From a virus: a stretch of 64,000 bases of DNA. Of this stretch, positions 11,105 to 64,000 are shown in pieces. The DNA is taken from positions 1-64,000 of the IMG/VR virus record IMGVR_UViG_3300037419_001472; one strand, given 5' to 3'. The notes below the pieces were generated by a model. That model made no database searches. It saw nothing but the letters and a program-made list of their open reading frames with translations, and was not told the origin of the DNA. Numbering within the stretch: the stretch's first letter is position 1; each line of letters begins with the position of its first letter. The translations under genes were made by a program, and so were the position numbers.

Positions 11105-11464
11105 TCAGGCGTGGAAATAGATCTCATCGAAGCTGGTGCGGGCCTCGGGGCTGGCCTTCAGCTCGGCCGAGAGACTCTTGAGGCTGGCCGCGTTCGTCCA
11201 GAACCGGACCCTCATCCAGCGGCTCGCGACATGATCGACGATCACCAGCCTGGAGCCGTTCCGCTCGACCGTCTCCAGGATCGTTCTGCCCTTGAGCGTC
11301 TTGAGAATCACAAGGTTCCCCTTGACCGCAAAGCGGGTGAAGGTGTGAGCATCACCCATCACGTCCTCGCGGATCTGGTCGTCACAGGCGCCGCTGGCGT
11401 CAATCGGCTGCTGCATCCAGAGCGCCAGGGCTTCCGCGGATCCGGTCAGGTGGGCAGTGGCCAT
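11105..11464 (-). CDS. hypothetical protein (119 aa)
   Basis: Start moved to the second ATG. The first ATG lies inside the SD of the stereotyped GAGGATGAGACCGATG initiation region. Confidence 0.5.
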   Translation of the reverse strand: MATAHLTGSAEALALWMQQPIDASGACDDQIREDVMGDAHTFTRFAVKGNLVILKTLKGRTILETVERNGSRLVIVDHVASRWMRVRFWTNAASLKSLSAELKASPEARTSFDEIYFHA

Positions 11465-11512
11465 CGGTCTCATCCTCGCGTTCAGGGTCAGGGATCAGTC
11501 ATGTCTAAGGAC

Positions 11513-11541
11513 ATAATATCCCGCTTCTTATCCCGAATCAA
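11513..11541 (-). promoter_or_regulatory. promoter TTGATT-17-TATTAT with upstream GAGAAAAATCCCGATTCGGAT box
   Basis: Minus-strand reading. The upstream 17 nt CTGAGAAAAATCCCGAT is shared with 55754-55770. Confidence 0.55.
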
Positions 11542-11643
11542 GATCCGAATCGGGATTTTTCTCAGATTTCTTCCCGAACCAGAATTGCGGGGGAGGGATG
11601 GGGGCAGGTACGATGGTGAGGTCCATGAAGGGGACGGGGGGAA

Positions 11644-11684: not shown

Positions 11685-12035
11685 TCATTGCGCGGCCTGA
11701 TGGGAGCGGATCCGCTCAGCCGCTTCCAGGATCAGCGCGGCCGGGAAGAACCGTTCCAAGGGTAGGCCCAGGCCGATGATGATCCGGTGGAGGGTCCGCC
11801 ACATCGGCTCGACGTCGCCGGCCTCGAGGTGCCAGTAGTGAGCCGTGGTCATCCCCAGGGCGGTCGCGGCCGCCCGCCCGCTGGGATAGCCGGCCTCGCG
11901 CCTCGCCTCGCGCAGTGCGCTGGCCAGCTCCGTCTTCGGCTCGGCTTTTGTGCTCAGTCTCATCGTCTTCATCGTCTTCATCGTCTTCATCGTCTTCATC
12001 GTCTTCATTGTCTTCATTGTCTTCATTGTCTTCAT
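11685..12035 (-). CDS. XRE-family HTH regulator with N-terminal (MKT)x8 repeat
   Basis: HTH segment LREARREAGYPSGRAAATALGMTTAHYWHLEAGDVEP. The N-terminus is encoded by 8 tandem ATGAAGAC(A/G) units, so the true start could be any of 9 ATGs. Confidence 0.7.
   Translation of the reverse strand: MKTMKTMKTMKTMKTMKTMKTMKTMRLSTKAEPKTELASALREARREAGYPSGRAAATALGMTTAHYWHLEAGDVEPMWRTLHRIIIGLGLPLERFFPAALILEAAERIRSHQAAQ
11961..12035. repeat. 9-bp tandem repeat, 8 copies (5x CATCGTCTT, 3x CATTGTCTT on plus strand)
   Basis: Directly visible in the sequence. Each unit carries an in-frame ATG on the minus strand. Confidence 0.95.
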
Positions 12036-12044
12036 CAATCAACC

Positions 12045-14488: not shown

Positions 14489-14707
14489 TCAACTCAGGTC
14501 CGCGTCCGGGTCGACGCCCAGATCCCGCAGCCGCTGCTTGCATCTGTCCAGGGCCAGCATCAGCGGCTGTTTCACGAGCGCGTCCGTGATTCCCTGCTTG
14601 GCCAGGTTCAGGATCGCCCTCTGGTAACTGGTCGCCATGCGCCGCTCACAGACAATCAGCACGTCCCGCGCCTGCTCGACCGTCATCACCCGGGTCGGCT
14701 TGCTCAT
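14489..14707 (-). CDS. hypothetical protein (72 aa)
   Basis: First gene after promoter 14756-14783. Second ATG of GAGGATGAGACCGATG chosen. Confidence 0.5.
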   Translation of the reverse strand: MSKPTRVMTVEQARDVLIVCERRMATSYQRAILNLAKQGITDALVKQPLMLALDRCKQRLRDLGVDPDADLS

Positions 14708-14755
14708 CGGTCTCATCCTCGCATCAGGTCCTCGTTATCCCTCACTTACAACCTT

Positions 14756-14783
14756 ATGATATCTCGCGTGATACTGGAGTCAA
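14756..14783 (-). promoter_or_regulatory. promoter TTGACT-16-TATCAT with conserved leader
   Basis: CTTGACT-N16-TATCATAAGGTTGTAAGTGAGGGATAACGA... is nearly identical to the copy at 17112-17139. Confidence 0.65.
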
Positions 14784-14963
14784 GCCCGAATCGGGATAAA
14801 ACCCGGGATTGAACCCAGATTGGGATCAGGCAACGCTAGGGCAACGCGCGGGCAATCTCGGGCAAGAACGAGCCGGATCCACGCGCGGGCGCGCAGGGAG
14901 AGCCGGCGGGACGTATTCTTGGTGATCGGGAGGGGAGAGCCGACGGGAGGGCGTGCAGGAGTG

Positions 14964-16200: not shown

Positions 16201-16292
16201 CGCTCTCATCCTCGCGTCTGGGCTTGGGACCAGCCCGGCACTGCGCCGGGGCCGCATTAGGCGGGGCCGAAGCCCCGCCCCCTCTGCGTGGC

Positions 16293-16778: not shown

Positions 16779-17063
16779 TCAGAACCGGATCAGGTTGAAC
16801 GTCGCGCCCATGTGCTCCACGCGCGACCGCTTCACGTCGTAGGGGTCGAAGGCTTCGACCAGATCGCACCGCGAGAGGGAGAGTAGCCCGAGCCGGTTCA
16901 TCTCGACCAGTGCTGCCTTGAAGCCATCCAGGCTGACCTCGAACTGGCCCAGCGCCCATGCCGCGTGGATCCAGATCTTCCGCCCGACCAGGGCCGCCTT
17001 CGGGGCATCAGCAGCAATCAGCCTGATCCGGGCGGCCAGGGCTTCCATCTCGGTCCGGGTCAT
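16779..17063 (-). CDS. hypothetical protein (94 aa)
   Basis: First gene after promoter 17112-17139. Second ATG of GAGGATGAGACCAATG chosen. Confidence 0.5.
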   Translation of the reverse strand: MTRTEMEALAARIRLIAADAPKAALVGRKIWIHAAWALGQFEVSLDGFKAALVEMNRLGLLSLSRCDLVEAFDPYDVKRSRVEHMGATFNLIRF

Positions 17064-17111
17064 TGGTCTCATCCTCAGGTCTTCAGGTCGTCATCCCTCG
17101 CCTACGACCTT

Positions 17112-17139
17112 ATGATATCCTCCCCGATATCACAGTCAA
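17112..17139 (-). promoter_or_regulatory. promoter TTGACT-16-TATCAT with conserved leader
   Basis: CTTGACT-N16-TATCATAAGGTCGTAGGCGAGGGATGACGA. This is a paralogue of the 14756-14783 copy. Confidence 0.65.
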
Positions 17140-17169
17140 GCGTTAATCCCGGAAAAAATCCAGGATCGA

Positions 17170-17184
17170 ATCCCGAAACGGGAT
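17170..17184. promoter_or_regulatory. perfect palindrome ATCCCG-AAA-CGGGAT
   Basis: Self-complementary 15-mer upstream of the leftward promoter, in the divergent control region 17064-17293. Confidence 0.45.
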
Positions 17185-47969: not shown

Positions 47970-48398
47970 ATGATATTGCAACGATGCAACCATTGCCCCG
48001 TCGTCCCCGATCGGGAGTGCCTTGGGACCACTGCGGCGTTCGGCTACATGTGCGAATTCGCCCAGAGCGAGGATCCGGTCAAAGTCCGGCATGTCGTCGA
48101 GCGATCGGCGATCGGAGTAGATCCCCAACCGCCTGGGATGATCGCGCGGACGGCATCGCTCGCTGTCGCAGTCGTGGCGCACATCGCAACCGGCATGCAT
48201 CGCGTGGACGACGCAGTTAGGGACGCCCGGCTGGCGATTTGCCAGACGAACGAATGCGGCCACTACCGGACCGAGGAAGGGGCGCCGGCCTGCCTGGCAT
48301 GCGGGTGCGGACGGCGGGGCCTGGAGATCAAGGCCGGGTGGGCCGAGCAGCAGTGCCCGCTCGACCCACCGCGGTGGGGGCCGGTTGAGGTTACTTGA
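47970..48398 (+). CDS. Cys-rich small protein
   Basis: CNHCP...C and ICQTNECGHY...CLACGCG...CP motifs. Start uncertain (47970, 48048 or 48138). Confidence 0.35.
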   Translation: MILQRCNHCPVVPDRECLGTTAAFGYMCEFAQSEDPVKVRHVVERSAIGVDPQPPGMIARTASLAVAVVAHIATGMHRVDDAVRDARLAICQTNECGHYRTEEGAPACLACGCGRRGLEIKAGWAEQQCPLDPPRWGPVEVT

Positions 48399-49968
48399 CC
48401 TCGCGCTGGCCCAGGTGGGCCTTGTAGAACGGCTGATTGACGTCGGTCGTGTTGAAGCCCTCGCTCGGCTGGGGCGAAACGCCCTGGACCGTGTCGAGCG
48501 TGCTGGTCACGACCATGCCGCTCCGGGCGAAAAGCGTCACGAGCCGACGGTCATTTTTGAGCACCGGCGCCGGCGAAGCCGTGGCCGGCGGATAATTCCC
48601 GGGCCCCGGAGTGGTGCCCGCCATCGCGTCGGCGTCCAGCGGCAGCTCGTAGTAAGTCACGCTCGCCGTGTTTGCCGGGTTCGGGTTCGGGACTCCCGCA
48701 GTGGTCCCCCAGACGGCTCCGCGCGCGTAGACGTCCTCGCGGGCCGCGAGCCAGAAGTCCAGGAACGGAATGGGGTTCATCGATGTCGCCGACGAGTACA
48801 TCGTCGTGGGCACGTAACTGCCGTTCGGATTGAGCATCACGTCAACCGAAAGCGATCCAGGGTCGACCGGCAAGCGCGACCGTTCCTGGAGTTTGTTCCA
48901 GGATGTCGCGTCGATCACCACGCCGGCCGGCAGGAGGATCTCACGTCCACCGGGCGTGGGCACAGGCCGTCGTTCGATTGAGTAGGCGGAATCCCAAAAG
49001 TGAGACTTACCGTTGCCGTTGGCCCATGCTGGCGAAGGGCTGAACGCTGAGGGAGCAGAGTCGCGGAGATTCCCAACGTTGAGTCCCACCCAGTCCTCGC
49101 GCTCCGTCCACTCCAGGGCGTCGTCTACGACCCCATCAGCGTTCTGGTCGTATCCATCCCATCCCTGGTCGACATAGCCGTCGTGGTCGTCGTCCTCTCC
49201 GTTGACCAAAAACAGAAACTCGGGCGTCGGCGGATTGGGGATCGGATTGCCAGCGGAGTCGTAGTAGGTCCGGACCAGAGGCGATGGTGTGCCAGGAGGG
49301 CCGACATTGACGAACCACTCGAGATTGCCCTGGTTGATTGCCAGAGGTGCCTTCGGATTGATCGTGCAAGGGCCAACGACCGTGTAAGCGCGGCCCGTGT
49401 CGCCGAACTTGATCTTGTCGCCCACCCTCACATTCCACCACCAGTTGACCGGCTCGTTGGGAATGGCGCCCGGTGTGATGAATCCGCCCACAAAGGGGGA
49501 CTCTTCGATCATGAGCACGTTTGCTGGCGTGCTGGAGTCGGGAAACGGATAGGTCGCGCCGTTGGTGATCGGATGGGCCGGAGGAAAGGTGGCCGTCGCC
49601 CCTCCAGGAGGTAGCTGGGGGCCGACACTGAACTTGCCGGCGGTATAGTCGGCGGCTGGCTCAATCGGGATCAGTCGGTTGTAGGCAAGCTGAAGCGTGC
49701 CGGCACCGACCGTGCCGACCGCCGGAAGCGTGAGCATAGGGTCGGGCATGAGCCGCAGGCCACGCGGCTCATTCTGGCGGATGGCCGCGTCCCTCGCCCC
49801 CGCAATCGCCCCCGTCAAGACCTGAGCCGCGTCGGTTATGCTTCGCCCTGTCAGTGAGTCGCGGATCAGGGGCAGCGCGATAAGCGACGCAATCAGGATG
49901 ATCGCGAGAACCACCAAGATCTCAACGAGCGTAAACCCTGGGCGGCGGTGACGTGATCGGCGGAACAT
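48391..49968 (-). CDS. prepilin-type N-terminal cleavage/methylation domain protein, large minor-(pseudo)pilin-like
   Basis: RRPG/FTLVEILVVLAIILIASLIAL prepilin signal. 525 aa. Acidic Ca-binding-like NGEDDDHDGYVDQGWDGYDQNADGVVDD. Confidence 0.8.
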   Translation of the reverse strand: MFRRSRHRRPGFTLVEILVVLAIILIASLIALPLIRDSLTGRSITDAAQVLTGAIAGARDAAIRQNEPRGLRLMPDPMLTLPAVGTVGAGTLQLAYNRLIPIEPAADYTAGKFSVGPQLPPGGATATFPPAHPITNGATYPFPDSSTPANVLMIEESPFVGGFITPGAIPNEPVNWWWNVRVGDKIKFGDTGRAYTVVGPCTINPKAPLAINQGNLEWFVNVGPPGTPSPLVRTYYDSAGNPIPNPPTPEFLFLVNGEDDDHDGYVDQGWDGYDQNADGVVDDALEWTEREDWVGLNVGNLRDSAPSAFSPSPAWANGNGKSHFWDSAYSIERRPVPTPGGREILLPAGVVIDATSWNKLQERSRLPVDPGSLSVDVMLNPNGSYVPTTMYSSATSMNPIPFLDFWLAAREDVYARGAVWGTTAGVPNPNPANTASVTYYELPLDADAMAGTTPGPGNYPPATASPAPVLKNDRRLVTLFARSGMVVTSTLDTVQGVSPQPSEGFNTTDVNQPFYKAHLGQREVK

Positions 49969-50502: not shown

Positions 50503-50690
50503 ATTGGGCAGGCCCGCGGTCGGGCCCGGTTGCGCTATTGATCTAGAATGCCTTGATGCCCCGGCTGCGGAAACTGGACAGACGCACACCGGCCCGGCAG
50601 GCCGCGATAATCTGGGAGTCCCAAGGTGTTTATGTGGCCCTTTGATCCCGTTTAAGGATTTGATCCGGGATCTTGGACGCTCGTTTTCTC

Positions 50691-51182: not shown

Positions 51183-51656
51183 TCAATGCCTGCCGCCCTT
51201 GTCCTTGCCGGCATGGTTCCGGGCCGAGGCCTCGGGCATCCGCCGGCCCGGCATCCGGATCGGCTGGCCGACCGGGGGCAGCTCCTGCGGGGCTGAGGCG
51301 GGCTGAGCCGGGGGAGGAACCAGGGGAGCGCCCAGGAGTCGGCGCAGCGATTCATCTGGCCCCAGGCGGCGGATCGCCTCCCAGCACAACTGTTCCTCGG
51401 GCGGCAACCCCTGGGCTAGCTTCGGGGTCTGGACCCCGGCAATCTCGTCCGGGTCATCGACCCGAGGGTCGCAGAGATACTCAACCGGCACGCCCAGGAA
51501 GCGAGCCATGTTAAGTAGATCCTCGGGTGAGGGGTGGCCTGTCCCCTGGACCCACTTCGAGATCCTCGACTGCGCCTTGTGAATGAAGGTGGCCAGGTCA
51601 TTCTGACTCTTGTTCAACTCACCGAGCCGTCTGGTGATCTTTTCACCTAACGTCAT
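51183..51656 (-). CDS. CI-like XRE-family repressor
   Basis: HTH segment LGEKITRRLGELNKSQNDLATFIHKAQSRISKWVQGTGHPSPEDLLNMARFLGV. Divergent from a cro-like gene. Start at internal ATG 51656. Confidence 0.7.
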   Translation of the reverse strand: MTLGEKITRRLGELNKSQNDLATFIHKAQSRISKWVQGTGHPSPEDLLNMARFLGVPVEYLCDPRVDDPDEIAGVQTPKLAQGLPPEEQLCWEAIRRLGPDESLRRLLGAPLVPPPAQPASAPQELPPVGQPIRMPGRRMPEASARNHAGKDKGGRH

Positions 51657-51769
51657 GTCAGCACTGGGGTCTCGGGAAAGAGGCGGTGTCAGTGGAGCCA
51701 CACTCACACTACTTGTTCCGATCAATTTCGTAACCCCCGGCTTTCTGGAAAACCCGCATTTTTTCCGCA

Positions 51770-51832
51770 TCGGGATTGAAACCGGAATTTCAGCGGGCTA
51801 GAATGATCTACGTTCGGGATTGAAAACGGAAT
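51770..51832 (+). promoter_or_regulatory. switch region: two direct repeats TCGGGATTGAAA(A)C(C/G)GAAT and promoter TTGAAA-17-TAGAAT (51776-51804)
   Basis: The repeats begin at 51770 and 51814. The first contains the -35 of a good sigma70-like promoter facing the cro-like gene. Confidence 0.6.
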
Positions 51833-51859: not shown

Positions 51860-52213
51860 ATGATGCCTGAGAACATCGCTGCCCCGCCCCGCCATCTGAG
51901 CGAGAAGTTGCTGACGACCTCGACGGTCGCGGATCAGGTGCGTCAGCCCAAGCTCAAGGTCGAGATCCTGACGCGGATCTGCGGCATCCAGCGGCATGGG
52001 GCGAGTAACTGCAAGCTGTTCGACGCGGCGGCCATCGAGCGTTTGAAGACGACGTTCGAGGTCTACGACCTGGCCAGTGCGCTGATCGCGCAGGGCCATG
52101 CCGAGGAGTTGCAAACGCTCTGGGACCTGTTCGCCTCTGGAGTGCATGACCTCGCCAACGAGGTCCAGGCCCGGTCCGAGGGGGCTGACGCCCCGGCCGT
52201 GGCGATTCGGTGA
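51860..52213 (+). CDS. Cro/excisionase-type (HTH_17-like) small DNA-binding protein
   Basis: LLTTSTVADQVRQPKLKVEILTRICGIQRHG...KLFDAAAIERL, and position opposite the repressor. Confidence 0.45.
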   Translation: MMPENIAAPPRHLSEKLLTTSTVADQVRQPKLKVEILTRICGIQRHGASNCKLFDAAAIERLKTTFEVYDLASALIAQGHAEELQTLWDLFASGVHDLANEVQARSEGADAPAVAIR

Positions 52214-52328
52214 TCACCGCGCAACCATTCTATATGCACCCGTGATGCCGGAAGGCAAGAAAAATTCCCATTTTTCCGGATCCGCCTAAAAACCTTGATC
52301 CGGGATCAACCGAGGAAAGGACTGGACC

Positions 52329-53272: not shown

Positions 53273-54351
53273 TGGCTCTCCCCTGGTTCCGGCTCTATCA
53301 CGAGGCTCGCAATGACGCCAAGCTGCGTCATCTGACCGACGCGCAGTTCCGTGTCTGGTTCAACCTGCTGTGCCTGGCTTCCGAGCAGCCTGATCGCGGC
53401 ACCATCGCATCGATGAATGTCAAACTGATGGCCCTCGAGGTCGCCGGCGGGGACGTTGATCTTCTCAAGGAAACGCTGGAAACACTGGAAACGTTTCATT
53501 GCGTTTCATTGCGTTTCATCAGCGTTTCCGAGGCCTCGATTTGCTTCATCAATTTCCAGAAGAGACAGTTTCAGGGCGTTTCAGGAAACGGTAAGACCTC
53601 GACGGATCGAGTTCGCAAACATCGTGAAGCCAAGAGGTTGCGTCAACATGAAACAGGTGAAACAAGTGAAACGCCAGTGAAACGCGATGAAACGCTAGTG
53701 AAACGCGATGAAACGCCCCCAGATACAGAGTCAGAGGCAGAAACAGAGTCTCTCGCTCCGCGGGCGCGCGAGACGACGGCCCCCACGGGGGGGATGATCT
53801 GCGTCGATGAGCCGGAGGACTTCGGCGACTCCGGGCTCGGGCTGCCTCCCTTCCCGGCCGATGGCGGGTATGCCCTGGATGGACCTGAGTACCCGTTCAA
53901 GCCGCCGGTCGAGCAGGTCCGGGCGATCTACGACGAGCTCTGGCGGGCCTTCGGCCACCGCCGGCTCTGTGCGGATTACCTCCGCAATCGCGGCCGCTAT
54001 GACTCGCGGGCCTGGCGCTGGGCGATCCAGCGGTGCCAGACGAAGGGGCTGCGGCCTCGCTCGCTCGGCTATCTCGGCAAGATCGCCTCAGACTGGCAAC
54101 CGGGCGATGAACCCGCGCTACCCCGGCCGGCGCCGGCCCCGGTGAAGGTCCATGAGCCGATCCCCCAGCGCGAGCCGCTGACCCCCAGTCAGAAGGCCCG
54201 GTATGCCCCCCTGCCGGGGCATCGGCTAGTCGATCCTGACGCCGGGATCCCGATCGCGGAACGCATGGCCAAACTCGCGCCGAACCATCCCCTCCGGAAA
54301 GCGTGGGAAGCCGGCCATGGACCTGTGGCCGTGGCCAGGGAGGCGCAATGA
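53272..54351 (+). CDS. phage replisome organizer / replication initiator (N-terminal Phage_rep_org_N-like)
   Basis: WFRLYHEARNDAKLRHLTDAQFRVWFNLLCLASE. SD GGAGGGA lies 5 nt upstream. Contains the iteron array. ATGA-coupled to DnaB. Confidence 0.7.
   Translation: MALPWFRLYHEARNDAKLRHLTDAQFRVWFNLLCLASEQPDRGTIASMNVKLMALEVAGGDVDLLKETLETLETFHCVSLRFISVSEASICFINFQKRQFQGVSGNGKTSTDRVRKHREAKRLRQHETGETSETPVKRDETLVKRDETPPDTESEAETESLAPRARETTAPTGGMICVDEPEDFGDSGLGLPPFPADGGYALDGPEYPFKPPVEQVRAIYDELWRAFGHRRLCADYLRNRGRYDSRAWRWAIQRCQTKGLRPRSLGYLGKIASDWQPGDEPALPRPAPAPVKVHEPIPQREPLTPSQKARYAPLPGHRLVDPDAGIPIAERMAKLAPNHPLRKAWEAGHGPVAVAREAQ
53469..53714. repeat. iteron array (origin-like): 17 copies of the GAAAC/GTTTC hexamer core
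   Basis: 3x GGAAAC (9-bp spacing), then inverted 3x GTTTCA plus GTTTCC (10-11 bp). Next come GTTTCA x2 and GGAAAC (53568-53589), then 7x TGAAAC at 9-11 bp spacing (53649-53714). Confidence 0.85.
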
Positions 54352-55757
54352 GCCGCACCCCAGCCCGGAACGGCCAGGGGGGACGGATCCCCGATGCCCC
54401 AGATGTCCAGGAATCCCTCCGGCTCTGGCCGCACTCGGTCGAGGCTGAGAATGGGGTCCTCGGCTCGGTCCTGCTCGATCCCGAGGTCCTGAATGACGTC
54501 GCGGGCCTGCTCAAGCCCGAGGATTTTTTCGGGGCCGCGCGGGGCGAGTGCTGGCAGGTGATCCTGGACCTGTACCAGACCGCCAGGGCGATCGACCCGA
54601 TCACGGTCGGGGACGAGTTGAAGCGGGCGGGCAAGTTCGACGACATCGGGGGTGACTTCGGGCTGTCCCAGATCCTCGGCGCGGTCCCCCATTCCGCCAA
54701 CGCGAAGCACTACGCCGAGGTCGTCCGGGAAAAGTCGGTCGCCCGCCAACTGGCCCATGCGACCCGATCGATCCAGGGCGACATCGCCAGCCAGACCCAC
54801 ACCGCCGATGACCTCCTGGAACGGGCAGAAACGGCCGTCTTCGCGATCGCCGAGAGCCGGACCCAGGAGAGCACGCATCAGGCCAAGGTCGCCGTCTCCG
54901 GCGCCCTGGCCCGGCTGGAGCGGCGCCGCCGCGGCCCATCGGGGATCTCCTGCGGCCTGGATGCCCTGGACCGGATGACTGACGGGTTTCAGCCCGGCCA
55001 ACTCGTGATCCTGGCCGCGCGGCCCAGCATGGGCAAGACCCAGCTCGGCCTGAACGTTTTCGAGTACTGCACGCTGGTCCGGCGCGAGCCGGCCCTATTC
55101 GTGAGCCTTGAGATGAGCAGCAATGAGATCGGCGAGCGGCTGGCGGTTTGCCGGTCAGGCGTCCCGAATTACAAGTTCAAGGATTTTGATTCAATCACGA
55201 CGGACGAGTGGGGCCGGCTGCTCAAGGCGGATACGGACTGGGCCAACGCCCCCGCCATGATTGACGACTCCCCCGCGCTGTCGACGCTCCAGATCACGGC
55301 CCTGACGCGGCGATGGAAGGCTCGTGCCGGGCTCAAGCTGCTGATCGTGGACTATCTGCAACTCGTGACCCCCAGCGAGGGAGAGTCCCGCCAGGAAGAG
55401 GTGGCCTCGATCAGCCGTGGCCTGAAGCGGATCGCCCGTGAGCTGGGCATCGCGGTCGTCTGCCTCAGCCAGCTCAACCGATCCAACGAGCAGCGACAGG
55501 ACAAGAAACCGCGGATGTCCGACCTCCGCGAGTCCGGGGCCATCGAGCAGGATGCCGACGTGGTGCTCCTGATGCACCGGCCTGATTACTACGACCCCAG
55601 CGACAAGCCGGGTTACTGCGAGCTGATCGTGGCGAAGAACCGCAACGGCGCGGTCGGCTCCGTCGACCTGAGGTTCTTCAAGGACCAGGGGCGGTTCGAG
55701 CCCTGGGTTTCCGACGTGGACCCGTCCCGGCCCGAGATCGACCCCTCCCAATTCTGA
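54348..55757 (+). CDS. dnaB: replicative DNA helicase DnaB
   Basis: PHSVEAENGVLGSVLLDP N-domain, Walker A ARPSMGKT, Walker B LLIVDYLQL, and SQLNRS...RESGAIEQDADVV. Confidence 0.9.
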   Translation: MSRTPARNGQGGRIPDAPDVQESLRLWPHSVEAENGVLGSVLLDPEVLNDVAGLLKPEDFFGAARGECWQVILDLYQTARAIDPITVGDELKRAGKFDDIGGDFGLSQILGAVPHSANAKHYAEVVREKSVARQLAHATRSIQGDIASQTHTADDLLERAETAVFAIAESRTQESTHQAKVAVSGALARLERRRRGPSGISCGLDALDRMTDGFQPGQLVILAARPSMGKTQLGLNVFEYCTLVRREPALFVSLEMSSNEIGERLAVCRSGVPNYKFKDFDSITTDEWGRLLKADTDWANAPAMIDDSPALSTLQITALTRRWKARAGLKLLIVDYLQLVTPSEGESRQEEVASISRGLKRIARELGIAVVCLSQLNRSNEQRQDKKPRMSDLRESGAIEQDADVVLLMHRPDYYDPSDKPGYCELIVAKNRNGAVGSVDLRFFKDQGRFEPWVSDVDPSRPEIDPSQF

Positions 55758-55762
55758 GAAAA

Positions 55763-55805
55763 ATCCCGATCCGGGATTGAATTCTGGATTGGGATCAGAT
55801 AAGAA
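55763..55805 (+). promoter_or_regulatory. palindrome ATCCCGATCCGGGAT fused to promoter TTGAAT-17-TAAGAA
   Basis: Immediately after the dnaB stop. The 18-nt ATCCCGATCCGGGATTGA is identical to the minus-strand copy at 7771-7788. Confidence 0.5.
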
Positions 55806-55858: not shown

Positions 55859-56221
55859 ATGCCCGCGCTGCTGAGCCAGCCCCCGATGCCGCGAGCCAAG
55901 AGCGACCCCGCGGCGTTGTTCGACCCCGAGTGCTGGATCTATGACCCGGTGGCTCGCGTGGGGATCCCCCGGGAGACGATCCGGCCCTGCTCGTGCGGCT
56001 CGACCGGATTCGTGCTGATCCTGAGGGGTGACGGGACGACGACCTTCCCGGTCCATTGCGCGGCGTGCTATGTCGAGCCGCGATTCCGGATGGCTCGCCC
56101 TGATGACCTGGATTACGCGACGCTCGACGTCGGCACCGGCCGCGTGACGTACACGCGGGATGCCGCCGAGATCAACCGACACCGCCGCATGGCGGAAGCG
56201 AGGGCGAAGAGTGGGCGCTAA
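55859..56221 (+). CDS. Cys-containing hypothetical protein (120 aa)
   Basis: Start preceded by GTGAGGCGAGCGACC. CSC...CAAC motifs. Confidence 0.5.
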   Translation: MPALLSQPPMPRAKSDPAALFDPECWIYDPVARVGIPRETIRPCSCGSTGFVLILRGDGTTTFPVHCAACYVEPRFRMARPDDLDYATLDVGTGRVTYTRDAAEINRHRRMAEARAKSGR

Positions 56222-62458: not shown

Positions 62459-64000
62459 ATGAGCATCGCCGACACCAACCGGCCCGCGGCGACCGCGACG
62501 GCCCCCGCCCGGGGGCTGACGATCCAACCCTATTTCTGCCCGCCGGACTGCAACCCCTACGCTCGGATCGGCTGGCGCACCGTGACGGCCCAGATCAAGG
62601 GGGATGACGGCCGGTTGATCTTCGAGCAGCCCAGCGTCGAGGTTCCCGAGGACTGGTCCGACCGGGCCGCCAACATCGTCGCCAGCAAGTATTTTTATGG
62701 CGACCTGTCGAAGGGATTCGACCCCACCCAGGGAGGGCGCGAGCATTCCGTGAGTCAACTCATCGGCCGGGTCTGCAACACGATCGCACACTGGGGCAAA
62801 GTGGATGGATACTTCGCCACGGCCGCGGATGCAGTCCAGTACCGGGAGGAGTTGGCGGCGCTGTGCCTCGGCCAGTATGGCGCATTCAACTCGCCGGTCT
62901 GGTTCAATGTCGGCCTGAGCCAGGAATACCACCTCAAGGGAGCAGCGAATAACTGGCGCTGGCATAAGGGGGAGGGACGGGCGGTCCCGTGCCTGGATGC
63001 CTACGAGTACCCCCAGGGCTCGGCCTGTTTCATCCAGAGCGTCGCGGATGACATGGGATCGATCATGGATCTGGCCCGTTCCGAGGCCATGCTGTTCAAG
63101 TATGGCTCGGGCACCGGGACTGACCTGTCGACGCTCCGCAGCACCAAGGAAAAGCTCCAGGGGGGTGGCAAGCCGAGCGGCCCGGTCAGCTTCATGCGGG
63201 TCTACGATGCGATTGCCGGCGTCGTCAAGTCGGGCGGGAAGTGCCTCGCCCCGGACCAGCCGATCCTGACCGATCGGGGAGTGAAGCCGGTCGGCGACCT
63301 GGCCGACCTCGAAGGCGGGTTCGTCGTGCTGTCCTACTCGCGCCGGCTCGGCCGGGTCGCGGCGAAGCGGGCGCATGCCTGGTGTTCCGGGGTCAAGCCG
63401 GTCATCTCCGTCATCACGGACAAGGGCGAATTCCGGGTTTCTCACGATCACCCGATGATGCTGAAGGATGGCATCTGGAAGCGGGCCGCCGACCTGAAGC
63501 CCGGCATGAGCCTGATGCAGGTCAGCACGGATCGCCACAAGGATGGCTATGTCCGCGTCGGACTCCAGGACGGCATGAAGGGGAAGGCCCTGTTCCATCA
63601 GCTCGTTGCCAAGGACATCCTCCGCTGGGATCTCCAGGGCAAGATCGTCCATCACGAGAACAAGGACAAGGGCGACAACCGGCCGGAAAACCTGCGGCTG
63701 AAGACCCAGGCCGAGCATGCCGCCGATCACGGGCGAGGCCGGGCGTTCTACACCGATGGGCATCCTGGCGAGCGGAACGGTATGCATGCCTCATCCGCGT
63801 TCTGGTCGGACTCCGAGCGGTCCAGCGAGTACCGCCTCAAGCAATCCGCGGTCCTGAAGCGGCGCAACCCAGCCATGCTCCAGAAGGCAGCAGTCCGCAA
63901 GCGGATGCTCAACCTCGGATATTCGCTCATCAACGCGGGGCATGACCTCTCGACGTTCGCCGGTTACGTCCTCGCCCGCAAGGCCGAGGGCCGACGCTGC
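62459..64000 (+). CDS. nrdJ: class II (B12-dependent) ribonucleotide reductase NrdJ, interrupted by an intein; partial (runs off window)
   Basis: Self-translated because the frame is open to the window end and absent from the track. Motifs: VEVPEDWSDRAANIVASKYF, NSPVWFNVG, GSACFIQSV, FKYGSGTGTDLSTLRS, GGGKPSGPVSFMRVYDAIAGVVKSGGK, then Cys. Confidence 0.85.
   Translation, partial: MSIADTNRPAATATAPARGLTIQPYFCPPDCNPYARIGWRTVTAQIKGDDGRLIFEQPSVEVPEDWSDRAANIVASKYFYGDLSKGFDPTQGGREHSVSQLIGRVCNTIAHWGKVDGYFATAADAVQYREELAALCLGQYGAFNSPVWFNVGLSQEYHLKGAANNWRWHKGEGRAVPCLDAYEYPQGSACFIQSVADDMGSIMDLARSEAMLFKYGSGTGTDLSTLRSTKEKLQGGGKPSGPVSFMRVYDAIAGVVKSGGKCLAPDQPILTDRGVKPVGDLADLEGGFVVLSYSRRLGRVAAKRAHAWCSGVKPVISVITDKGEFRVSHDHPMMLKDGIWKRAADLKPGMSLMQVSTDRHKDGYVRVGLQDGMKGKALFHQLVAKDILRWDLQGKIVHHENKDKGDNRPENLRLKTQAEHAADHGRGRAFYTDGHPGERNGMHASSAFWSDSERSSEYRLKQSAVLKRRNPAMLQKAAVRKRMLNLGYSLINAGHDLSTFAGYVLARKAEGRRC
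63242..64000 (+). mobile_element. intein with HNH homing-endonuclease domain inserted after KSGGK of NrdJ (C-terminal end beyond window)
   Basis: Block A CLAPDQPILTDRG, block B-like FRVSHDHPMML, and HNH motif IVHHENKDKGDNRPENLRLKTQAEH. The expected extein continuation TRR.. is absent at the junction. Confidence 0.8.

What the first reader, a model, noticed from the sequence alone, without database searches (positions are those of the whole stretch)
55763..55805. Shared operator/promoter family: palindrome ATCCCG-N3-CGGGAT fused to a TTGA -35 box, on both arms of the element
Seen:
- Perfect 15-bp palindromes at 7774-7788, 17170-17184 and 55763-55777.
- Imperfect copies near 7076-7092, 11547-11562 and 14784-14798, with half-sites near 17145-17152, 50641-50672, 51770-51832 and 52286-52300.
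- The 18-mer ATCCCGATCCGGGATTGA is identical at 55763-55780 (plus strand) and 7771-7788 (minus strand).
- CTGAGAAAAATCCCGAT is shared by 55754-55770 and the minus strand at 11551-11567.
- In most copies the right half-site runs into TTGACT/TTGAAA/TTGAAT, followed 16-18 nt later by a TATCAT/TAGAAT/TATTAT-type hexamer.

Inference: a dimeric phage regulator (one of the HTH proteins here) controls at least 6 early promoters. The motif ties the 1-17 kb arm and the 51-64 kb arm to one regulon and one element.
Basis: seen in the sequence. Interest (0 to 1): 0.65.

Follow-up and report, generated by a model that had tools for sequence, protein, structure and literature searches.

The report
Phage repressor operators fused to early promoters
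A 15-bp palindrome (ATCCCG-N3-CGGGAT) sits against the -35 box of every recognisable early promoter of a roughly 78-kb phage of planctomycete bacteria, and it is most likely the binding site of the phage's own CI-like repressor, which is an ordinary kind of switch in an unstudied host group.

Summary
There are three perfect ATCCCG-N3-CGGGAT palindromes where 0.02 are expected by chance, and five copies with at most one mismatch where 0.72 are expected. All of them are intergenic. An independent sigma-70-type scan places promoter-like hexamer pairs at the same spots. Seven promoters carry a site centred about -42, with the last T of the palindrome serving as the first T of TTGA. Some also have sites near -72, -20 or +2.

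Related uncultured phages carry the same motif at the equivalent (syntenic) promoters. In those relatives some sites lie inside the spacer, across the -10 or at +1, which indicates repression. Every relative that encodes a homologue of the XRE repressor gene at 51183-51656(-) has the motif, and the recognition helix AQSRISKW is invariant among these homologues. Relatives with no such homologue in the DNA recovered use different promoter boxes.

Best reading (confidence 0.65): these are operators of a dimeric CI-like repressor that silences all early operons of one element. The element is probably a ParAB phage-plasmid of Isosphaeraceae, and its system logic resembles the dispersed C1 regulon of phage P1.

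No binding or transcription start site has been shown. I class this as a new member of a known kind, of moderate to low interest.

The parts
55763..55777 (.). Perfect palindrome ATCCCGATCCGGGAT. It is the operator at about -42 of promoter P55777, and its last T is the first T of the -35 box.
55777..55805 (+). Promoter P55777: -35 TTGAAT (55777-55782), 17-nt spacer, -10 TAAGAA (55800-55805). It drives 55859-56221, DUF5131, RusA, ThyX and RNR. The equivalent promoter downstream of DnaB in relatives L085 and L089 also carries the motif.
55781..55795 (.). Auxiliary imperfect site ATTCTGGATTGGGAT inside the spacer of P55777, centred about -24.
   Evidence: (PWM 16.4, eighth-ranked hit)
7774..7788 (.). 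Perfect palindrome, operator at about -43 of P7774.
7745..7774 (-). Promoter P7774: TTGACT, 18-nt spacer, TAGACT. It points into a non-coding stretch that holds a tRNA. A weak second site at 7750-7764 overlaps the spacer and -10. The equivalent promoter in L093 also follows pol III beta and drives a tRNA.
17170..17184 (.). Perfect palindrome ATCCCGAAACGGGAT, centred about -72 of P17139, in the divergent gap between the leftward early arm and the rightward structural arm.
17112..17151 (-). Promoter P17139: TTGACT, 16-nt spacer, TATCAT (17139-17112), with half-site CGGGATT at 17145-17151 (about -43). It drives 16779-17072 and the first leftward operon.
14783..14797 (.). One-mismatch palindrome (minus strand ATCCCGATTCGGGCT) at -41 of P14783. 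A weaker site at 14812-14826 is centred about -70.
14756..14783 (-). Promoter P14783: TTGACT, 16-nt spacer, TATCAT. It drives 14489-14734, the SMC-like ATPase and the HTH_31 gene.
11530..11585 (.). Site cluster at P11541: 11571-11585 (about -72), the 14-bp variant 11543-11556 (about -43), and 11530-11544, which overlaps the -35 box and spacer (about -31).
11513..11541 (-). Promoter P11541: TTGATT, 17-nt spacer, TATTAT. It drives 11105-11473, DUF932 and pol III beta. It has the same layout as the promoter at L089 6300-6345.
7075..7089 (.). One-mismatch palindrome (minus strand ATCCCGCTTCGGTAT) at -41 of P7075.
7048..7075 (-). Promoter P7075: TTGAAA, 16-nt spacer, TAGGAT. It drives 6602-6967, the SNF2 helicase, the methylase, the 428-aa HTH_3 protein, DUF1643 and NADAR.
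51762..51820 (+). Immunity-region promoter P51776: imperfect site TTTCCGCATCGGGAT (51762-51776, -42), TTGAAA, 17-nt spacer, TAGAAT (51776-51804), and a downstream half-site or weak site at 51806-51820 (about +2). The same two-site geometry, 44-45 bp apart, occurs in L056 and L089.
51183..51656 (-). XRE/HTH_3 CI-like repressor gene (157 aa), transcribed divergently from P51776. It is the proposed binder of the palindrome. It has no S24 peptidase domain.
51860..52213 (+). First gene of the rightward operon, in the cro position (117 aa). It matches no known family and is 27% identical to its counterparts in L089 and in the motif-less relative L086.
50645..50671 (.). Imperfect site ATCCCGTTTAAGGAT followed by TTGATC-CGGGAT, on the lysogeny side of the repressor gene. 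No convincing -10 box.
52292..52306 (.). Weak site ACCTTGATCCGGGAT between the cro-position gene and the Rad52-like gene. No convincing -10 box.

Best explanation
The palindrome ATCCCG-N3-CGGGAT (consensus roughly AAAA-ATCCCGATYCGGGAT-TGA) is the operator of the phage's own XRE-type, CI-like repressor, encoded at 51183-51656(-).

Proposed mechanism (inferred):
- A repressor dimer puts one helix-turn-helix into each CGGGAT half-site. The half-site centres are 9 bp apart.
- Each site abuts or overlaps the -35 hexamer. At some promoters extra sites lie in the spacer, near +1, or about 30 bp upstream on the same helical face.
- Bound repressor therefore keeps host sigma-70-type RNA polymerase off all seven early promoters at once. 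Five of these head successive leftward operons (17.1 to 7.0 kb). Two head the rightward operons (51.8 and 55.8 kb), which carry recombination, replication and nucleotide-metabolism genes.
- This would hold the element silent, probably as a ParAB-partitioned plasmid prophage.
- The repressor has no LexA-like cleavage domain, so induction would need an antirepressor or some other inactivation route.

Shown here: the motif's enrichment, its intergenic and promoter placement, its conservation in relatives, and its co-occurrence with the repressor gene.

Inferred, not shown: binding, dimerisation, repression, transcription start sites and the lifestyle.
For: 1. Enrichment and placement.
- 3 perfect sites against 0.02 expected, and 5 sites with at most 1 mismatch against 0.72 expected.
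- A PWM built only from relatives' sites ranks 10 window sites highest, all in the 12.6% of the window that is intergenic.
- In every promoter the site is centred at -41 to -43.5 relative to the predicted start.

2. The motif and promoters go together. A generic promoter scan picks exactly the motif positions. The other intergenic gaps of the early arms have neither a promoter nor the motif.

3. The promoters are near consensus: the -35 matches TTGACA at 4-5 of 6 positions, spacers are 16-18 nt, and the -10 boxes read TATCAT or TAGAAT. They should not need an activator.

4. Relatives carry the motif at equivalent promoters, and some of those sites overlap the core promoter.
- L093 5994: the palindrome lies inside the spacer of TTGACG-17-TATTAT, in front of a tRNA.
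- L093 6392 and 6414: two sites 22 bp apart, the second a perfect palindrome that runs into the -10 box.
- L089 2416: ATCCCGATATGGGAT lies immediately after the -10 box of the promoter facing the repressor gene.
- L056 148-174: sites lie downstream of the -10 box.

5. Link to the repressor.
- The motif fills the gap between the repressor gene and the early operon in all three phages that have a homologue (window, L056, L089).
- The recognition helix AQSRISKW is invariant, although overall identity is only 58% and 36%.
- Relative L086 has no homologue at the equivalent place and no intergenic motif.
- Relatives L091, L092 and L166 use other promoter boxes.
- HTH_31 homologues are present in motif-less relatives (L091, L092), and a cro-position homologue is present in motif-less L086.

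6. The repressor matches Pfam HTH_3 and PHROG transcriptional-repressor families.
Against: - No binding, footprint or transcription start data exist. The promoter calls are consensus matches in a phylum whose promoters are poorly characterised.
- At four window promoters (7075, 14783, 17139, 51776) the good sites are only at about -42 or -72. These are classical activator positions, and a site spanning -49 to -35 overlaps the -35 hexamer by only one base.
- The site next to the repressor gene itself (51762-51776) is one of the weakest, whereas the perfect palindromes are far from it.
- Only two repressor homologues were found, so the co-occurrence test is thin. For L085, L091, L092 and L166 the immunity region was not on the recovered contig.
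- Regulators can change specificity, so finding HTH_31 homologues in motif-less phages does not strictly exclude HTH_31 as the binder.
- The AlphaFold model of the repressor was poor (pLDDT 64) and gives no support for a dimer.
Confidence: 0.65

Rival explanations
1. The palindrome is a positive-control site. A phage-encoded dimeric regulator (the CI-like protein acting bifunctionally, or another early protein) binds at -42, and at -72 where present. It contacts RNA polymerase as class II and class I activators do, or as lambda CI does at OR2 for PRM. On this view the family is an activator-dependent promoter class, or a mixed activation and repression switch.
For: The site is centred at -41 to -43.5 at all seven window promoters, and second sites lie at -70 to -72 at three of them. 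The same -42 register occurs in relatives. This geometry matches lambda OR2 relative to PRM and CRP class II and class I positions (established knowledge). Four window promoters have no strong core-overlapping site.
Against: The -35 and -10 hexamers are near consensus, unlike typical activator-dependent promoters. In relatives, and at P11541 and P55777, sites lie in the spacer, across the -10 or at +1, where a bound protein must block polymerase. The best candidate binder is a repressor-type gene sitting divergently in the immunity position.
Confidence: 0.13
2. The sites are operators, but of a different phage HTH protein. Candidates are the HTH_31 protein 11685-12038(-), the 428-aa HTH_3 protein 2610-3896(-), or the unclassified cro-position protein 51860-52213(+). 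Such a protein could, for example, be a Cro-like or early-to-middle shut-off repressor.
For: Several HTH genes lie in the motif-controlled operons. An HTH_31 homologue is also present in L093, which has the motif. In lambda-like switches Cro shares the operators with CI (established knowledge).
Against: The HTH_31 recognition helix differs between the window (TTAHYWHLE) and L093 (LQPNLSRIE), although the motif is the same. HTH_31 homologues also occur in motif-less L091 and L092. The cro-position protein matches no HTH family, is only 27% conserved, and has a homologue in motif-less L086. No homologue of the 428-aa protein was found in L093 at the equivalent place, or in any relative.
Confidence: 0.12
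3. No dedicated phage regulator is involved. The palindrome with its A-tract is simply part of a duplicated promoter cassette (an UP-element-like or extended -35 context), or it is the site of a host factor.
For: Several promoters share longer stretches than the palindrome, including GAGAAAAA upstream and, at P14783 and P17139, a common leader and ribosome-binding cassette. This shows that promoter units have been copied. The upstream A-tract alone is not statistically enriched.
Against: Two-fold symmetry is kept while the central 3 bp and the flanks vary. Sites also occur away from the -42 register, at -72, in spacers and at +1. Relatives with similar genes but other immunity types have different promoter boxes, as expected for a phage-specific repressor rather than a shared host factor or a polymerase requirement.
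Confidence: 0.07
4. On the opposite strand the motif reads as a hairpin ATCCCGnnnCGGGAT followed by TTTTTC. On this view it acts as an intrinsic terminator that stops antisense transcription from entering the early operons.
For: The terminator scan lists 7065-7087(+) and 17177-17159(-), which overlap motif copies.
Against: The stem has only 6 pairs with a 3-nt loop. The T-run is present at only three or four copies. Terminator-like hits are not enriched over shuffles (6 against 3.8, and 9 against 5.1). This reading does not explain the fixed fusion to the -35 boxes or the sites inside spacers in relatives.
Confidence: 0.03

Closest known systems
Lambdoid immunity switches (lambda, 434 and P22 CI/C2 repressors with OR/OL operators)
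   Same: An XRE-type HTH repressor gene is transcribed divergently from the early operon. Palindromic operators of 14-17 bp lie in the gap and overlap sigma-70-type promoters. There are several sites per promoter, spaced by whole helical turns. A site at -42 has the same geometry as lambda OR2 relative to PRM.
   Different: There are at least seven separately promoted operons carrying the operator, spread over about 27 kb in two arms, rather than just PL and PR. The repressor lacks the S24 (LexA-like) autocleavage domain. The main site abuts the -35 hexamer instead of covering the core promoter. The host is a planctomycete.
Phage P1 C1 repressor regulon
   Same: A single repressor has operators widely dispersed over the genome and controls many separate operons, including replication functions, in a plasmid prophage that has a partition system. 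P1 has 22 operators (PMC8546580). ParA and ParB lie just outside this window.
   Different: P1 operators are asymmetric 17-mers (ATTGCTCTAATAAATTT, PMC8546580), and to my knowledge C1 binds as a monomer. Here the sites are two-fold symmetric 15-mers and the candidate repressor is an HTH_3 protein.
Cluster A mycobacteriophage (L5-type) repressor with stoperators
   Same: Numerous copies of one repressor site are distributed across both arms of a temperate phage genome (PMC9283540, PMC6550527).
   Different: Stoperators are asymmetric, are bound by a monomer, lie within transcribed regions in one orientation, and stop elongation. Here the sites are palindromic and fixed to promoter -35 boxes.
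Streptomyces phage phiC31 repressor with its conserved inverted repeats (CIRs). This comparison is from my own memory; the tools found no paper on it.
   Same: A conserved inverted repeat is repeated at many early-region promoters of a high-GC temperate phage, and the phage repressor binds it.
   Different: The phiC31 repeat is 17 bp with a different sequence, its early promoters are not sigma-70-consensus-like, and its repressor is a different, larger protein made in several isoforms.

Membership tests
Lambdoid-type phage immunity repressor and operator system | An HTH (XRE/Cro-C1 type) repressor gene divergent from the early lytic operon | tested here: met
   51183-51656(-) matches HTH_3 at 5.9e-12. 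It is divergent from P51776 and gene 51860-52213(+).
Lambdoid-type phage immunity repressor and operator system | Two-fold symmetric operators in the repressor/early-operon gap that overlap the early promoter | tested here: met
   The window has 51762-51776 (imperfect) and 51806-51820 (weak). There are clearer pairs in L056 (148-161, 204-218) and L089 (2371, 2416), 44-45 bp apart and flanking the core promoter.
Lambdoid-type phage immunity repressor and operator system | A C-terminal S24/LexA-like autocleavage domain for RecA-dependent induction | tested here: not met
   Pfam finds only HTH families in the 157-aa protein. The C-terminal 50 residues are Pro/Ala-rich and are modelled with low confidence.
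Lambdoid-type phage immunity repressor and operator system | The repressor dimer binds the operators and represses transcription | not testable with these tools
   This needs EMSA or footprinting plus reporter assays. The only indirect support is motif co-occurrence and an invariant recognition helix.
P1 C1-type dispersed operator regulon of a plasmid prophage | Many operators dispersed over the genome, each controlling a separate operon | tested here: met
   Seven promoter-linked sites lie between 7.0-17.2 kb and 51.7-55.8 kb, and two further weak sites lie at 50.6 and 52.3 kb.
P1 C1-type dispersed operator regulon of a plasmid prophage | An asymmetric 17-bp operator and a C1-family repressor | tested here: not met
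   The sites are palindromic 15-mers. The candidate repressor is HTH_3. P1 operator features are taken from PMC8546580.
P1 C1-type dispersed operator regulon of a plasmid prophage | A plasmid-prophage lifestyle with a partition system | tested here: inconclusive
   ParA-like and ParB genes lie about 5-6 kb beyond the window's left end on the same 78-kb contigs. No integrase was found in the ORFs of the window that were scanned. The contigs begin at different points, which suggests a circle. The lifestyle itself is not shown.
Mycobacteriophage stoperators | Asymmetric sites, oriented with transcription and located within transcription units, where they block elongation | tested here: not met
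   The sites are symmetric and sit at about -42 of promoter-like elements. The definition is from PMC9283540.
Class II (CRP/lambda-CI-at-PRM type) activator sites | A dimer site centred near -41.5 that abuts the -35 region | tested here: met
   Predicted centres are -41 to -43.5 at seven promoters. The transcription starts are predicted, not measured.
Class II (CRP/lambda-CI-at-PRM type) activator sites | A promoter that is defective on its own (poor -35), with no sites overlapping the core | tested here: not met
   The -35 hexamers match TTGACA at 4-5 of 6 positions, and hexamer pairs match at 9-10 of 12. Sites within the spacer, the -10 or +1 occur in relatives and at P11541 and P55777.

The most novel reading that the evidence does not exclude
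The strict -42 (and -72) register at otherwise strong promoters may reflect a bifunctional regulator. On this reading the same CI-like protein, or an unrecognised early protein, activates the promoters that have only upstream sites. It represses those with sites in the core. A single palindrome family would then provide both the lysogenic lock and the temporal ordering of the early operons in a phage-plasmid of Planctomycetota, a phylum with no characterised phage regulatory circuit.
Probability: 0.13. Interest if true: 0.55.

Novelty: new member of a known kind. Interest (0 to 1): 0.35.

Why it matters
This defines, from sequence alone, a complete candidate repressor, operator and promoter set for a phage of Isosphaeraceae (Planctomycetota). 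Phage biology, promoters and genetic tools are barely described in this group.

If confirmed, it would give:
- seven natural sigma-70-type promoters;
- a matching repressor and operator pair that could be used as a switch in planctomycete genetics;
- a way to recognise immunity groups among related uncultured phages;
- a non-proteobacterial example of a P1-like arrangement, with one repressor and many dispersed operons, in a probable phage-plasmid.

It does not change how phage repression is understood.

Tried and rejected
- Near-identity searches of both arms against INPHARED phages found nothing. The terminase has only matches of 34% identity or less there.
- Exact-pattern scans of IMG/VR with ATCCCGNNNCGGGATTGA and CCGATTCGGGATTGA returned only scattered single hits. 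For the first scan, BLAST comparison with the window found no related locus, only two loci with a distantly similar terminase. The hits of the second scan were not compared with the window and were judged to be chance from their number and single-copy pattern.
- Protein-guided scans of GTDB genomes and JGI metagenomes with DnaB found only relatives of 46% identity or less.
- Scans of IMG/VR with the repressor alignment and with DUF932 found nothing.
- Other assemblies carrying the identical repressor protein are 100% identical across 50.5-52.4 kb, so they offer no population-level footprinting.
- I tested whether GGGAT copies are phased every 12 bp in direct orientation. There were 3 pairs against 0.46 expected, but shuffles also reach 3, so I did not build on it.
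- The upstream A-tract (GAAAAATCCCG) is not significantly enriched on its own. CGGGATTGA alone is only marginal, at 5 against 1.3 expected.
- GATATC is not enriched overall.
- The AlphaFold2 model of the repressor from a 2-sequence alignment was poor (pLDDT 64), so no fold search was run. The PDB sequence search gave only a generic XRE regulator.
- Literature searches found no paper on planctomycete promoters or on the phiC31 repeats.

Full report
**1. The observation**

The window holds exactly three perfect copies of ATCCCG-N3-CGGGAT, at 7774-7788, 17170-17184 and 55763-55777. Dinucleotide-preserving shuffles give 0.02 on average, and none of 100 reached three. Allowing one mismatch adds 7075-7089 and 14783-14797, making 5 copies against 0.72 expected. 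Allowing two mismatches gives 21 against 8.8 expected. The shared 17-mer is also present, but on the minus strand at 11549-11565, two bases from the coordinates given.

A GC3-based gene map, supplemented by gene calls from public assemblies of the same element, places all good copies between genes. An unbiased k-mer comparison of intergenic and coding sequence picked out GGGATTGA. It also picked out an unrelated iteron, GCGTTTCA.

**2. The element**

The window has 66% G+C and no close relative among deposited phages.

- 17.2-46.5 kb: structural and packaging genes on the plus strand, including the terminase.
- 51183-51656(-): an XRE/HTH_3 protein, divergent from a rightward operon.
- Rightward operon: a Rad52-like protein, an iteron cluster, DnaB, DUF5131, RusA, ThyX and ribonucleotide reductase.
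- Leftward arm, 17.1 kb down to 1: successive minus-strand operons with an SMC-like ATPase, an HTH_31 protein, DUF932, the pol III beta clamp, an SNF2 helicase, a methylase, a 428-aa HTH_3 protein, DUF1643 and NADAR.

The same sequence occurs on contigs of about 68-78 kb in several metagenomes. Two contigs of 78.2 and 78.4 kb start at different points, which suggests a circular genome. ParA-like and ParB genes lie just beyond the left end of the window. No integrase was found in the window ORFs that I scanned. The best named DnaB relatives are from Singulisphaera and other Isosphaeraceae, and a related phage fragment sits in a Singulisphaera rosea assembly. The element is therefore probably a phage-plasmid of an Isosphaeraceae planctomycete. 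Both motif-bearing arms belong to this one element.

**3. Anatomy of the motif**

When every copy is oriented with local transcription, it aligns as [A/T-rich 5-6 nt]-ATCCCGnnnCGGGAT-TGAnn, then 16-18 nt, then TAnnAT. A generic sigma-70 consensus scan that knows nothing of the palindrome calls promoter-like pairs at 17139, 14783, 11541, 7774 and 7075 on the minus strand. These are five of the seven hits between 6.9 and 17.4 kb, where 0.9 are expected. It also calls one at 51776 on the plus strand. The promoter at 55777 (TTGAAT-17-TAAGAA) just misses the threshold.

Taking the start as 7 nt after the -10 box, the main site is centred at -41 to -43.5 in all seven promoters. Further sites lie at -70 to -72 (P11541, P14783, P17139), at -19 to -31 (P7774, P55777, P11541) and at +2 (P51776). 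The remaining intergenic gaps of the two early arms contain neither a promoter-like pair nor the motif. The ParAB module outside the window lacks the motif. The motif therefore marks the complete set of recognisable early promoters.

**4. Comparative evidence**

Homologue searches with DnaB and DUF932 recovered several diverged relatives together with their flanking DNA.

Relatives that carry the motif at equivalent promoters:
- The phage from run ERR3200796 (L089 and L093; DnaB 52%, DUF932 63% identical). Sites lie either side of the promoter facing its repressor gene (L089 2371 and 2416), downstream of DnaB (L089 6315) and upstream of DUF932 (L093 583). Another follows the pol III beta gene and drives a tRNA, as in the window (L093 5994). 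A further pair lies 22 bp apart (L093 6392 and 6414).
- A 1-kb contig with a repressor 58-60% identical (L056). It has three sites around the equivalent promoter.
- The S. rosea fragment (L085). It has one site at the promoter downstream of DnaB.

Several of these sites lie inside the spacer, run into the -10 box or cover +1. A protein bound there must exclude RNA polymerase.

A PWM built only from these relatives' sites, and so independent of the window, ranks ten window positions highest. All ten are intergenic, although only 12.6% of the window is.

**5. Which protein**

Three lines of evidence point to the XRE protein at 51183-51656.
- It occupies the classical immunity position, with the motif between it and the early operon in all three phages that encode a homologue.
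- Its predicted recognition helix, AQSRISKW, is invariant although overall identity falls to 58% and 36%.
- L086 has the cro-position gene, Rad52 and DnaB, but no repressor at the equivalent place. It has no intergenic motif.

Relatives L091, L092 and L166 use other promoter-associated boxes (GGATATCA-type or TTTGCA-type). That pattern is expected of phage-specific immunity types, not of a host factor.

The other candidates fare worse:
- The HTH_31 protein has homologues in motif-less L091 and L092. Its recognition helix differs between the window and L093, although these two share the motif.
- The cro-position protein has no recognisable DNA-binding domain, is only 27% conserved, and has a homologue in motif-less L086.
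- No homologue of the 428-aa HTH_3 protein was found in any relative.

**6. Mechanism and its rival**

I favour repression (confidence 0.65). A dimer would bind each palindrome. The A/T-rich flanks suggest that the footprint extends into TTGA, and together with the auxiliary sites the bound protein would deny the promoter to polymerase. The spacings between sites are about 22, 30 and 44-45 bp, which puts them on roughly one helical face and is compatible with cooperative binding (inference). The repressor has no S24 peptidase domain, so induction would need an antirepressor or another route.

The main rival arises because -42 and -72 are textbook activator positions, with the same geometry as lambda CI at OR2 for PRM. 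The protein could therefore activate at promoters that lack core-overlapping sites. The near-consensus hexamers and the core-overlapping sites in relatives argue against pure activation, but they do not exclude a dual role. Nothing here demonstrates binding, dimerisation or transcription starts.

**7. Comparison with known systems**

This works like a lambdoid immunity switch scaled out to many operons. At the system level it resembles the phage P1 C1 regulon, which has 22 dispersed operators in a plasmid prophage (PMC8546580). However, P1 operators are asymmetric and C1 is a different protein, so this is not a member of that family.

It differs from mycobacteriophage stoperators (PMC9283540, PMC6550527), which are asymmetric, bound by a monomer and act on elongation. 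From memory it also resembles the phiC31 repressor and conserved-inverted-repeat arrangement, but I found no paper on this with the tools.

I class it as a new member of a known kind. Its value lies mainly in the host group, and in supplying a ready-made set of promoters and a repressor/operator pair for an under-studied phylum.

**8. Dead ends**

Pattern scans of IMG/VR gave only what look like chance hits. Other collection scans found only distant relatives or nothing. Assemblies carrying the identical repressor are identical in the immunity region. A possible 12-bp phasing of GGGAT repeats was not significant. The structure model of the repressor was too poor to use.

Noticed in passing
window 53490-53720: A dense cluster of 8-bp iterons (GCGTTTCA and variants GTTTCA/GGAAACG) in two opposed groups, between the Rad52-like gene and the genes upstream of DnaB. 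There are eight exact copies, all intergenic, and none elsewhere in the window. It is probably the replication origin.
   Followed up: partly
window 16218-16288 (-): A Type-P5 twister ribozyme (Rfam RF02684, 55.5 bits against a gathering score of 37.6) lies between two small ORFs of the first leftward early operon.
   Followed up: no
window 7476-7616 (-): A tRNA match (RF00005, 46.8 bits) has a 27-nt insertion in the anticodon arm region. ARAGORN calls it a 96-nt tRNA-Asp with anticodon 'atc'. It is preceded by a separate T-arm-like hairpin GGAGGTTCAAATCCTCC. The stretch also gives a weak, sub-threshold match to the tRNA-like Y RNA YrlA (27 bits, gathering score 69). The motif promoter P7774 points into this non-coding region. 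The relative L093 has a normal-looking tRNA at the same place.
   Followed up: partly
L094 10780-20555 (beyond the window's left end): The same contigs of about 78 kb continue with a second small XRE gene, ParB and a ParA-like ATPase, a PhoH-like ATPase and another methylase. No ATCCCG-N3-CGGGAT sites occur there. Other repeats do: GTGATTGACC three times at about L094 11730-11800, and TTTTGCA...TGCAAAA palindromes next to parA. Contig start points differ between samples, which suggests a circular phage-plasmid.
   Followed up: partly
window 14749-14700, 17105-17056, 11470-11457, 16201-16292 (minus strand): Several early genes share a leader and ribosome-binding cassette, GAGGATGAGACC(G/A)ATG (at 16201-16292 the variant GAGGATGAGAGCGATG). 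P14783 and P17139 share about 80 nt of promoter and leader (TATCATAAGGTnGTAnGnGAGGGATnACGA...). This shows that whole promoter-leader units have been duplicated.
   Followed up: partly
window 17112-17131, 14756-14770, 7045-7050; L091 8400-8440, 8730-8770, 9490-9520: The spacers and -10 regions of P17139, P14783 and P7075 contain GATATC or TATCAC elements about 12 bp apart (for example TTGACTgtGATATCggggagGATATCAT). Three promoters of the motif-less relative L091 carry the same GGATATCA-type boxes. GATATC is not enriched overall. This may be the site of a second regulator, or merely a preferred extended -10.
   Followed up: partly
window 48391-49968 (-): A 525-aa protein with a prepilin-type N-terminal methylation motif (PF07963) lies on the repressor strand, between the tail genes and the repressor gene. 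It looks like a lysogeny-expressed accessory (moron-like) gene, typical of planctomycete proteomes.
   Followed up: no
window 62459-64000 (+): The class II ribonucleotide reductase gene carries an HNH_3 endonuclease domain inside it (residues about 390-421). The full protein is about 1059 aa in other assemblies. This suggests an inserted homing endonuclease or intein.
   Followed up: no
L166 7390-7700, 9575-9990, 10830-11210; L090 9705-10005: More distant relatives, at 57-58% DUF932 identity, have promoter-like sites decorated with different repeated boxes (TTTGCA/TGCAAA). This is consistent with a mosaic of immunity specificities in this phage group.
   Followed up: no
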